The translations under genes were made by a program, and so were the position numbers. 372 bases of DNA from sequence record OP360898.1; one strand, written 5' to 3'. The notes under the pieces are model-generated. The model was not told the DNA's origin. It was given only the letters and a program-made list of their open reading frames with translations, and did not search any database. This document shows, one piece after another, positions 1-372 of this stretch (positions are counted from its first letter, which is position 1; every line of letters begins with the position of its first letter). The DNA is from a phage.

Positions 1-372
1 TCTGACGGCTGACGTTCTGATTTACGATATTGAGGACGCGATGAACCACTATGACGTTCGCTCTGAGTACACCTCTCAGTTGGGTGAATCTCTGGCGATG
101 GCTGCTGATGGTGCGGTTCTGGCTGAGATTGCTGGCCTGTGCAACTTGGCGAGCACCGCTGACGAGAACATCGCAGGTCTAGGCTCTGCCACTGTGATTG
201 AGACCGCTCAGACCAAGGTTGAAATTACCGACCAAGTCGCTCTGGGTAAGGAGATTATTGCGGCTCTGACCAAGGCTCGTGCGGCTCTGACCAAGAACTA
301 TGTTCCGGCTGCTGACCGTGTGTTCTACTGCGACCCAGATAGCTACTCTGCGATTCTGGCTGCGCTGATGCC
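1..372 (+). CDS. 10A: Major capsid protein of a T7-like podophage (Autographiviridae), internal fragment, partial at both ends; codon phase: first complete codon at nt 2-4, last complete codon at nt 368-370
   Basis: Seen in sequence: the frame starting at nt 2 is open across the window (123 codons), while the other two plus-strand frames stop immediately (tga at 3-5 and at 10-12). Codon usage is strongly biased toward ctg, gct, ggt, cgt, acc, aac, tac, as in highly expressed enterobacterial and T7 late genes. Established knowledge (recall, not a database search): the translation matches the central region of T7 gp10A, e.g. LTADVLIYDIEDAMNHYDVRSEYTSQLGESLAMAADGAVLAEIAGLCN and TDQVALGKEIIAALTKARAALTKNYVPAADRVFYCDPDSYSAILAALMP. 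The trailing cc is consistent with the next residue being Pro, as in T7. Confidence 0.9.
259..295 (+). repeat. Exact 16-nt direct repeat tgcggctctgaccaag (259-274 and 280-295) at a 21-nt (7-codon) period, inside the CDS
   Basis: Seen in sequence: the 16-mer is identical at 259-274 and 280-295, including all synonymous third positions. The flanking bases differ (258 t vs 279 g; 275 g vs 296 a). In frame it encodes AALTK twice, within AALTKAR / AALTKNY. Confidence 0.85.

What the first reader, a model, noticed from the sequence alone, without database searches (positions are those of the whole stretch)
146..226. Divergent patch relative to T7 gp10A, flanked by near-identical sequence
Against T7 gp10A as I recall it, the flanks (window residues 1-48 and 76-123) look essentially identical, while the segment LASTAD...A...S...A.T.VEI (nt ~146-226) carries most of the substitutions. 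The same stretch also holds most of the window's less-favoured codons (ttg 146-148, agc 152-154, gca 173-175, cta 179-181, act 191-193, gtg 194-196). That pattern fits a mosaic segment acquired by recombination from another T7-like phage, or a surface-exposed region under diversifying selection. My T7 reference is from memory, so the exact substitution list is uncertain.
Basis: partly seen in the sequence, partly recalled or inferred. Interest (0 to 1): 0.4.

Follow-up and report, generated by a model that had tools for sequence, protein, structure and literature searches.

The report
Hypervariable loop in T7-type capsid protein
The divergent patch is real: it is one of three short hypervariable stretches of the T7-family major capsid protein, different in every related phage examined and reshuffled by recombination, which makes it an ordinary variable capsid loop, probably on the outer surface, and not a one-off foreign insert.

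Summary
The window is codons 99-221 of the major capsid gene (gp10 homologue) of Salmonella phage 3A_8767, a Teseptimavirus. It is 100% identical to the GenBank record except for base 1.

- **Observation confirmed against real T7.** All 12 amino-acid differences in the window lie in codons 147-173 (nt 146-226). That is 12/27 in the patch against 0/96 in the flanks, and 24/81 against 13/288 nucleotide differences (p~1e-9).
- **The pattern is not specific to T7.** Among 24 distinct Teseptimavirus capsid genes the patch has 24 different protein alleles, while the two flanks have 2 and 4. It is the second of three hypervariable regions (aa 17-21, 147-173, 260-279), and family-wide indels fall at the same places.
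- **Selection is not proven.** dN is ~30x higher than in the rest of the gene, but dN/dS is only 0.30. Synonymous diversity is ~2x higher and codon adaptation is lower in the patch.
- **Recombination is pervasive across the whole gene** (PHI p=0.0015; segment genealogies are uncorrelated).
- **No donor was found** for the 3A_8767 allele (best 88.9% nt), and its C-terminal half is private.
- **Outer-surface exposure is inferred**, from homologous capsid structures only.

Verdict: real, ordinary, modest interest.

The parts
2..372 (+). Internal fragment of the major capsid protein gene (gp10 homologue), codons 99-221 plus 2 nt of codon 222, of Salmonella phage 3A_8767
   Evidence: 100% megablast identity to NC_048004.1 26773-27143 within the CDS 'major head protein'. 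Open frame. Pfam PF21703 Gp10A-like E=7e-42 and PHROG 267 major head protein. 93% protein identity to T7 gp10A, PDB 3J7X etc..
2..145 (+). Conserved 5' flank, codons 99-146 (includes the long 'spine' helix, about aa 107-146)
   Evidence: 0 amino-acid differences from T7. Only 2 protein alleles among 24 Teseptimavirus genes, and dN = 0.000. The helix assignment comes from low-confidence AF2 DSSP (helix at aa 118-144) and HK97-fold topology, so it is inferred.
146..226 (+). Hypervariable region 2 (HV2) of gp10, codons 147-173: the finding
   Evidence: 12/27 aa and 24/81 nt differ from T7. 24 distinct protein alleles in 24 phages. Mean pairwise dN 0.175 vs 0.006 and dS 0.58 vs 0.24 in the rest of the gene. 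Family-wide indels occur at T7 residues 169-174.
146..163 (+). HV2 variable cluster a, codons 147-152 (L/V, A/E/S/T/V, S/G, T/Q/A/K/D, S/Y/A/T/L/H, D/N)
   Evidence: Per-position residue counts in 24 Teseptimavirus genes. In 3A_8767 this half (LASTAD) is shared with PVN09.
164..205 (+). HV2 invariant scaffold E153-N-I, G157-L-G and A161-T-V-I-E-T, interrupted by variable codons 156 (nt 173-175) and 160 (nt 185-187)
   Evidence: These residues are invariant in 24/24 genes (E165 in 23/24). Their codons nevertheless carry the highest synonymous diversity in the gene (0.46-0.77 at I155, G157, L158, G159, A161, T162, V163).
206..226 (+). HV2 variable cluster b, codons 167-173, where variable positions (167, 169, 171-173) alternate with invariant Q168 and K170; the 3A_8767 version AQTKVEI is private
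   Evidence: Residue counts show A167, T169 and V171 occur only in 3A_8767 among the 24 genes. The degenerate pattern for ETAQTKVEI matches only the phage itself in IMG/VR, plus one chance hit in 596 Gb of genomes.
227..372 (+). Conserved 3' flank, codons 174-221 (first A-domain helix and the following segment)
   Evidence: 0 amino-acid differences from T7. 4 protein alleles among 24 genes, and dN 0.005. The low-confidence AF2 model has a helix at aa 176-198.

Best explanation
Window nt 146-226 encode hypervariable region 2 (HV2, residues 147-173) of the HK97-fold major capsid protein gp10 of a T7-group phage.

What is shown:
- About 14 positions (147-152, 156, 160, 167, 169, 171-174) accept many residues, including charge changes.
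- An invariant scaffold (ENI, GLG, ATVI, T166, Q168, K170) is maintained.
- Co-infecting T7-like phages recombine so often that gene segments under 150 bp have independent genealogies, so variants are reshuffled. Practically every isolate carries a unique combination at HV2 and at the two sister regions, HV1 (aa 17-21) and HV3 (aa 260-279).
- The 3A_8767 allele combines an N-terminal half also seen in PVN09 with a private C-terminal half (A167, T169, V171). It is therefore best read as an old allele class further modified by point mutation, not as a recent block transfer.

What is inferred:
- The variable side chains face the outside of the capsid.
- The variability reflects low structural constraint, possibly amplified by diversifying pressure from something that recognises the capsid surface. 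That agent has not been identified.
For: - Identity and coordinates.
- Hypervariability in every comparison: 13 IMG/VR plus 12 GenBank Teseptimavirus genes give 24/24 distinct HV2 alleles versus 2 and 4 for the flanks. Entropy peaks at 141-185 and 251-285 both within the genus and across 80 T7-like capsids.
- dN 0.175 vs 0.006 and dS 0.58 vs 0.24.
- Synonymous differences at aa-invariant codons are 0.36 vs 0.158, above all 195 control blocks. The diversity profile peaks at codons 151-170.
- Indels in 80 homologues occur only at T7 residues ~20, 169-174, 264, 277-280 and the C-terminus, i.e. at the HV regions.
- Recombination: PHI p=0.0015. Segment distance matrices are uncorrelated. 38/78 four-gamete violations occur inside the 81-nt patch. 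There is a genealogical switch for 3A_8767.
- No donor and a private C-terminal half.
[quoted passage not shown] The T7 N-terminal tail (residues 2-25, containing HV1) is externalised in the mature capsid (PMC7695174). The solved H5 capsid differs structurally from T7 at four indel-bearing elements, and H5 vs T7 has exactly four indel sites, one of them in HV2 (PMC11481518; alignment).
Against: - Solvent exposure of residues 147-173 in T7 itself was not measured. The T7 structure paper was not available. Both AlphaFold fragment models were unusable (pLDDT 45.8 and 37.2).
- Regional dN/dS is 0.30, so nothing here requires positive selection.
- The raised synonymous diversity can be explained by weaker codon-usage selection alone. 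Codon adaptation in the patch is lower than in all control blocks in 23/24 phages, also at invariant codons.
- The panel is 24 sequences, and the recombination-based inferences rest on small counts with post-hoc choice of comparators.
- The large protein search returned only fragments.
Confidence: 0.75

Rival explanations
1. Pure relaxed constraint. HV2 is a structurally tolerant linker that drifts neutrally, and recombination merely shuffles neutral variants. No external agent selects for diversity.
For: Regional dN/dS is 0.30, below 1. Indels are tolerated there. Codon adaptation is locally poor in 23/24 phages, consistent with generally weak selection on this stretch. The mBio authors state that the H5/T7 loop differences do not correlate with infectivity or specificity (PMC11481518).
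Against: Half of the patch residues are absolutely invariant, so the segment is not unconstrained. 24/24 unique alleles, with charge-changing replacements at five positions, and a local peak of synonymous diversity are also what balancing or diversifying selection would produce. Three separate regions, at least one of them (HV1) documented as exterior, behave in the same way.
Confidence: 0.4
2. Diversifying (negative frequency-dependent) selection. HV1, HV2 and HV3 form the exposed face of the capsid subunit that is recognised by something hostile, such as capsid-triggered abortive-infection proteins (PifA-type, CapRel-, CBASS- or Pycsar-type sensors) or animal antibodies. Rare alleles then escape and are favoured.
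For: Every isolate has a unique allele. Synonymous diversity is locally elevated, as expected around balanced polymorphisms in a recombining population. Capsid mutations are a recurrent escape route from SEFIR, Pycsar, CBASS, PifA, Lit and CapRel (preprint 10.1101/2022.08.27.505566). [quoted passage not shown]
Against: There is no dN/dS above 1. No escape mutation has been mapped to gp10 147-173 in any paper I could read. BASEL attributes PifA sensitivity mainly to gp1.2. There is no association of HV2 allele with host genus in the panel: the two Salmonella phages carry unrelated alleles. Intracellular sensors see unassembled or assembling protein, so surface exposure in the virion is not obviously relevant to them.
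Confidence: 0.3
3. Discrete mosaic block. 3A_8767 recently acquired nt ~146-226 from another T7-like phage by a single homologous exchange with breakpoints in the conserved flanks.
For: The backbone-nearest relatives (SYGE1, NC-A, 64795_ec1, JeanTinguely) differ from 3A_8767 3-4x more at synonymous codons inside the patch than outside (p=0.001-0.03). The patch-nearest relatives (YpYeO9, PVN09, EG1, KKE5P) show equal rates inside and outside. The gene pool recombines.
Against: No donor was found. The best patch identity is 88.9% nt and 82% aa in GenBank phages, IMG/VR and the metagenome collection. Three residues are private. All segments of the gene are mutually incongruent, so there is no clonal frame against which one block stands out. 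The patch is divergent against all 23 relatives.
Confidence: 0.1
4. The patch overlaps a second, non-coding or alternative-frame element (promoter, RNA structure, embedded ORF, DGR variable repeat) that drives its unusual evolution.
For: None positive. This was considered because both synonymous and non-synonymous sites are unusual here.
Against: - There is no Rfam match at E<=1.
- There is no T7-promoter-like site with up to 3 mismatches.
- There are no inverted repeats.
- Alternative-frame ORFs are 43 aa or shorter and overlap conserved flanks as much as the patch.
- Only one copy of the patch exists in the phage genome, so there is no DGR template repeat (places_in_record = 1).
- Extra constraint would lower synonymous diversity, not raise it.
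Confidence: 0.02

Closest known systems
Bacteriophage T7 major capsid protein gp10A (HK97 fold; PDB 2XVR, 3IZG, 3J7V/W/X; Pfam PF21703)
   Same: 93% identical over 343 aa. The window flanks are 100% identical in protein. Gene order is the same (scaffold gp9, gp10, tail tube gp11/12), and the gp10B frameshift site GGTTTTC is conserved.
   Different: 12 substitutions in residues 147-173, plus differences in residues 3, 10, 18-21, 262-279 and 342. There are one-residue length differences in HV1 and HV3.
HV2 alleles of Edwardsiella phage PVN09, Yersinia phage vB_YpYeO9 and Escherichia phage SYGE1
   Same: PVN09 shares LASTADENIAGLGSATVI exactly. YpYeO9 is the closest at nucleotide level (88.9%). 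SYGE1 is the closest backbone (2.8% nt distance) and shares STADENIAGLG.
   Different: The C-terminal half AQTKVEI of 3A_8767 is unique (PVN09 TQAKSKI, YpYeO9 TQAKAEI, SYGE1 TQSKSEL). No relative is close in both backbone and patch.
Post-spine-helix loop / G-loop region of other HK97-fold capsids (Syn5 gp39, PhiM1 MCP, HK97 gp5)
   Same: It has the same topological position, immediately after the long P-domain helix. In Syn5 and PhiM1 this region is on the exterior and contacts decoration proteins (PMC4102127; PMC11440229).
   Different: T7-group phages have no decoration proteins. The equivalence rests on fold topology, not on a structural superposition done here.
Hypervariable surface loops of other viral capsid proteins (e.g. 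adenovirus hexon HVRs; from general knowledge)
   Same: Short, indel-tolerant, hydrophilic segments embedded in a highly conserved shell protein. They differ between every type and are exchanged by recombination.
   Different: For those systems antibody pressure and dN/dS above 1 are documented. Here neither the selective agent nor positive selection has been shown.

Membership tests
T7-type HK97-fold major capsid protein (Gp10A-like, PF21703) | Significant match to the family profile above the curated cut-off | tested here: met
   The window fragment scores 144 bits (cut-off 27) and the full protein 374 bits. PHROG 267 major head protein E=1e-34.
T7-type HK97-fold major capsid protein (Gp10A-like, PF21703) | Close sequence relationship to a capsid protein with a solved HK97-fold structure | tested here: met
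   E=1e-202 to T7 gp10A chains 2XVR/3J7V-X, aligned end to end.
T7-type HK97-fold major capsid protein (Gp10A-like, PF21703) | Syntenic position between the scaffold gene and the tail-tube genes in a T7-like genome | tested here: met
   L001 has portal, scaffold, major head, gp10B extension, tail tubular A and B in that order, the same as T7.
Hypervariable surface loop under diversifying selection | Variability concentrated in a short segment relative to the flanks, across many relatives | tested here: met
   24/24 alleles vs 2 and 4 for the flanks. dN is 30x that of the rest of the gene. Entropy profile.
Hypervariable surface loop under diversifying selection | Segment is solvent-exposed on the assembled particle | tested here: inconclusive
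   There is indirect support only: Syn5 and PhiM1 homologous loops bind external proteins, and the patch holds an indel site between two solved capsids.
Hypervariable surface loop under diversifying selection | dN/dS above 1 at the variable sites | tested here: not met
   Regional dN/dS is 0.30 with local dS. Recombination-aware site-wise tests were not possible with these tools.
Hypervariable surface loop under diversifying selection | Identified selective agent (antibody, receptor, immune sensor) | not testable with these tools
   The literature gives only generic links between capsids and Abi systems, plus a minor role of gp10 in PifA sensitivity.
Discrete recombinant (mosaic) segment | A donor lineage more similar in the segment than in the flanks | tested here: not met
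   The best patch identity of 88.9% nt is lower than the flank identities of 91-99%. There is nothing closer in IMG/VR, the metagenome collection or the genome collection.
Discrete recombinant (mosaic) segment | Phylogenetic incongruence specific to the segment against a congruent backbone | tested here: not met
   Incongruence exists, but it is general: flank5 vs flank3 gives r=-0.21, and all segment pairs give r<=0.55.
Diversity-generating retroelement variable region | A second, template copy of the variable repeat and a reverse transcriptase nearby | tested here: not met
   The patch occurs once in the 38.8-kb genome (places_in_record 1). There are no repeats of the patch in the window. 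Neighbouring genes are structural.

The most novel reading that the evidence does not exclude
HV1 (externalised N-terminal tail), HV2 (post-spine-helix loop) and HV3 (A-domain loops) together form one composite exterior face of the T7-group capsid subunit. This face would be kept polymorphic by negative frequency-dependent selection from capsid-recognising bacterial immunity or animal antibodies. Sub-100-bp recombination between co-infecting phages would act as the allele-shuffling engine, making it in effect an antigenic-variation system in a strictly lytic phage.
Probability: 0.2. Interest if true: 0.6.

Novelty: new member of a known kind. Interest (0 to 1): 0.25.

Why it matters
This is chiefly a clean negative for the more exciting reading. 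The patch is not a foreign insert but a generally hypervariable capsid loop, and the sequence itself is already in GenBank.

It has some practical value:
- It marks residues 147-152, 156, 160 and 167-174 of T7-type gp10 (with 17-21 and 260-279) as naturally substitution- and indel-tolerant. That is useful for phage display or capsid engineering, and as a high-resolution strain marker for Teseptimavirus.
- It shows that even a 1-kb capsid gene in this group is a fine-scale recombination mosaic, so capsid-gene trees should not be read as phage phylogeny.

If the variability turned out to be driven by capsid-sensing immunity, it would give a natural allele series for mapping what such sensors recognise.

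Tried and rejected
- **Large protein search.** The search with the window translation returned only 7 fragmentary hits at 73% identity or less and no full-length T7-group capsid. It was useless as a donor search and gave no full-length protein that I was allowed to fold.
- **AlphaFold.** The window fragment and the 201-aa fragment P0002, each with an 8-sequence alignment, gave mean pLDDT 45.8 and 37.2. These were too poor for exposure or fold search, so I did not run fold search.
- **Unavailable papers.** The T7 capsid structure papers (Guo 2014; Ionel 2011) and Schmitt & Molineux 1991 on gene 10 and F exclusion are not held. I could not obtain residue-level names for T7 loops or the location of PifA-escape mutations.
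- **Naming HV2.** I tried to name HV2 using the four elements listed for phage H5 vs T7 (A-loop, E-loop, A-pocket, N-hairpin). The four indel sites match in number, but the insertion and deletion labels do not match one-to-one. The name is left open.
- **Genome-collection pattern hit.** This was a chance match: 0.81 were expected and the protein context was unrelated.
- **Non-coding explanations rejected.** I rejected an RNA element, a T7 promoter, an embedded ORF and a DGR.
- **Introgression from another genus rejected.** Non-Teseptimavirus capsids are even less similar in the patch (33-52% aa) than in the flanks (82-90%).

Full report
**1. What the window is**

The 372-nt window has one open frame (frame 2, nt 2-372). 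All other-frame ORFs are 43 aa or shorter. Megablast gives 100% identity over nt 2-372 to Salmonella phage 3A_8767 (MH382198 / NC_048004; genus Teseptimavirus; host S. Typhi; India), inside the CDS annotated 'major head protein'. Base 1 differs from the record (T vs C, synonymous). The window covers codons 99-221 of a 343-aa gp10 homologue. It matches Pfam Gp10A-like PF21703, PHROG 267 and the solved T7 gp10A chains at E=1e-202. The gene sits in the canonical order portal, scaffold, capsid, gp10B extension, tail tube A and B.

**2. Checking the observation**

I aligned the 3A_8767 gene to the true T7 gene 10A from NC_001604.

- Window residues 1-48 and 76-123 are identical to T7.
- All 12 amino-acid differences fall in gp10 residues 147-173, which are exactly nt 146-226.
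- The counts are 12/27 vs 0/96 residues (Fisher p=1.2e-9) and 24/81 vs 13/288 nucleotides (p=2.8e-9).
- Gene-wide, the differences from T7 form three clusters plus the C-terminus: aa 3, 10, 18-21; 147-173; 262-279; and 342.

The codon remark is partly right. With the gene's own usage as reference, 6 of the 11 low-usage codons in the window are in the patch (p=0.014), and only 1 of 263 other 27-codon blocks is as poorly adapted. ACT is not a minor codon here, and the rare GCC at codon 161 was overlooked.

**3. The patch is hypervariable in the whole group, not just against T7**

I collected 80 T7-like capsid loci from IMG/VR and 12 more Teseptimavirus genes from GenBank. This gave 24 distinct Teseptimavirus genes.

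- Variable amino-acid positions cluster in HV1 (17-21), HV2 (147-173), HV3 (260-279) and the last three residues.
- HV2 has 24 different protein alleles in 24 genes and HV3 has 23. The two window flanks have 2 and 4.
- Inside HV2 the pattern is fixed. E153-N-I, G157-L-G, A161-T-V-I, T166, Q168 and K170 never change. Positions 147-152, 156, 160, 169 and 171-174 take up to seven residues each, including charge changes.
- The alternation of variable 167/169/171 with invariant 168/170 suggests an extended strand with one face exposed. This is inference.
- Across the wider family, indels relative to T7 occur only at T7 residues ~20, 169-174, 264, 277-280 and the C-terminus, i.e. at the HV regions.

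**4. Mode of evolution**

Nei-Gojobori estimates over the 13 IMG/VR Teseptimavirus genes are:

| Region | dN | dS | dN/dS |
|---|---|---|---|
| HV2 | 0.175 | 0.58 | 0.30 |
| Rest of gene | 0.006 | 0.24 | 0.03 |

Amino-acid turnover is therefore ~30-fold higher, but there is no regional dN/dS above 1.

Synonymous divergence is also raised. At codons whose amino acid is invariant, the mean pairwise fraction differing is 0.36 in HV2 versus 0.158 outside. That is higher than all 195 control blocks, and the gene's synonymous-diversity profile peaks at codons 151-170.

Two readings remain open:
- Old alleles maintained in a recombining population.
- Locally ineffective selection on codon usage.

The second reading is supported by the codon data. 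HV2 is less codon-adapted than every control block in 23 of 24 phages, also at invariant codons.

**5. Recombination**

- A permutation PHI test on 222 informative sites is significant (0.5635 vs 0.5888±0.0083, p=0.0015).
- Pairwise-distance matrices of gene segments are almost uncorrelated. HV2 vs window flanks gives Mantel r=0.17, and the 5' flank vs the 3' flank gives r=-0.21.
- 38 of 78 site pairs inside the 81-nt patch violate the four-gamete test.

The whole gene is thus a fine-scale mosaic.

For 3A_8767 specifically, the backbone is nearest to SYGE1, NC-A, 64795_ec1 and JeanTinguely. HV2 is nearest to YpYeO9, PVN09, EG1, KKE5P, IME390 and EFA-2. Against the first group, synonymous codon differences are 24-44% in HV2 versus 8-11% in the backbone (p=0.001-0.03). 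Against the second group they are equal.

So HV2 of 3A_8767 belongs to a different allele class (S160...I173) than the HV2 of its backbone relatives. This is a recombinational history, but not a recent block import:
- The closest HV2 is only 88.9% identical in nucleotides.
- The N-terminal half is shared with PVN09, whereas A167, T169 and V171 are private.
- HV3 of 3A_8767 likewise looks like a chimera of the 64795_ec1 and YpYeO9 versions.

**6. Donor search**

- The patch alone against 50,697 GenBank phage records gave nothing above 88% besides the phage itself.
- In IMG/VR, the peptide TADENIAG and the degenerate pattern for ETAQTKVEI occur only in the phage itself.
- In the 596-Gb genome collection there was one hit, in an unrelated protein, where 0.81 chance hits were expected.
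- The 5.8-billion-protein search returned only fragments and is uninformative.

**7. Where the patch sits in the capsid**

I could not compute this directly.
- The T7 structure papers are not held.
- The folding tool accepted only window-derived or previously returned proteins.
- The two fragment models have mean pLDDT 45.8 and 37.2. The first at least places aa 145-175 as a non-helical stretch between helices at 118-144 and 176-198.

The indirect evidence is consistent with an exterior position:
[quoted passage not shown] - The T7 N-terminal tail (residues 2-25, containing HV1) is externalised on maturation (PMC7695174).
- The solved Klebsiella phage H5 capsid differs structurally from T7 in four elements attributed to indels (PMC11481518). 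H5 vs T7 has exactly four indel sites, one at T7 residue ~169 in HV2. The paper's labels cannot be matched one-to-one to those sites, so I do not assign a T7 loop name to HV2.

**8. Other possibilities excluded**

- No Rfam family matches.
- There is no T7-promoter-like sequence.
- There are no inverted repeats.
- There is no second copy of the patch in the genome, which rules out a DGR.
- There is no resemblance of the patch to other genera that would suggest introgression. Patch identity to them is 33-52% aa versus 82-90% in the flanks.

**9. What drives the variability**

This is unknown. The literature shows that capsid proteins are frequent escape loci for abortive-infection systems: SEFIR, Pycsar, CBASS, PifA, Lit and CapRel (10.1101/2022.08.27.505566). 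T7 gp10 has some role in PifA sensitivity, although gp1.2 is the main determinant (PMC8594841). I found no mapping of such effects to residues 147-173. The HV2 allele shows no association with host genus in the panel. I therefore rank relaxed constraint plus recombination as sufficient, and diversifying selection as possible but unproven.

**10. Verdict**

The patch is a hypervariable, probably exterior, loop. Recombination is involved, but as pervasive shuffling and not as one import. Diversifying selection is not demonstrated.
- The feature is an ordinary property of a well-known protein family, and the 3A_8767 allele is a new variant within it.
- Interest is low to modest.

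Noticed in passing
window 1: Base 1 of the window is T, whereas the otherwise identical GenBank record (NC_048004 / MH382198) has C at that position (gene nt 294, codon 98 CTC>CTT, synonymous). It could be a windowing artefact or a variant.
   Followed up: partly
window 259-274 and 280-295: There is an exact 16-nt direct repeat, TGCGGCTCTGACCAAG, 21 nt apart. It encodes AALTK twice (IIAALTKARAALTKN) inside the conserved A-domain helix, and is present in T7 with a single synonymous C>T difference in the first copy.
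   Followed up: partly
L001:3738-3899 (3A_8767, downstream of the window): The gp10B -1 frameshift extension is annotated as a separate 'head protein' CDS. The slippery GGTTTTC site just before the gp10A stop is conserved with T7, and the extension (53 aa) is nearly identical to T7's (52 aa). The same split annotation appears in most related records.
   Followed up: partly
L001:3484-3543 (gp10 aa 260-279, HV3): HV3 of 3A_8767 looks chimeric. ARDGVTGQKH matches 64795_ec1 and PATATGNDKV matches YpYeO9. HV3 has 23 alleles in 24 phages and contains the two largest indel sites of the family.
   Followed up: partly
L088 (MT350293, 'Enterococcus phage EFA-2'); P0002, P0006, P0007: A Teseptimavirus capsid gene 92.7% identical to the window is deposited as an Enterococcus faecalis phage. 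T7-like capsid fragments are also labelled Cutibacterium acnes, Xylella fastidiosa and Enterobacter hormaechei. These are probably host mislabels or contamination.
   Followed up: no
L096:1141-1425 and L095:1141-1425: A 39.8-kb metagenome contig (ERZ807347 NODE-48) carries the exact T7 HV2 protein allele. A 38.9-kb human-gut contig carries a Teseptimavirus HV2 allele with a one-residue deletion (IETQAKTAL).
   Followed up: no
A5 alignment (T7 vs Klebsiella phage H5 gp10): The mBio paper attributes H5/T7 structural differences to insertions in the A-loop and A-pocket and deletions in the N-hairpin and E-loop. The sequence alignment has no indel in the canonical E-loop region (aa ~63-98). The four indels are at T7 ~22 (deletion), ~169 (deletion), 262-266 (insertion) and 278-281 (deletion).
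   Followed up: partly
whole capsid gene, 24 Teseptimavirus sequences: Distance matrices of adjacent ~150-bp conserved segments are uncorrelated or even negatively correlated (r=-0.21 for the two window flanks). Single-gene capsid phylogenies for this genus therefore do not reflect a single history.
   Followed up: yes
(protein database search): The 5.8-billion-protein search returned only 7 fragmentary hits for a query whose flanks are 100% identical to T7 gp10. Full-length T7-group capsids appear to be absent from, or not retrievable in, that index.
   Followed up: no
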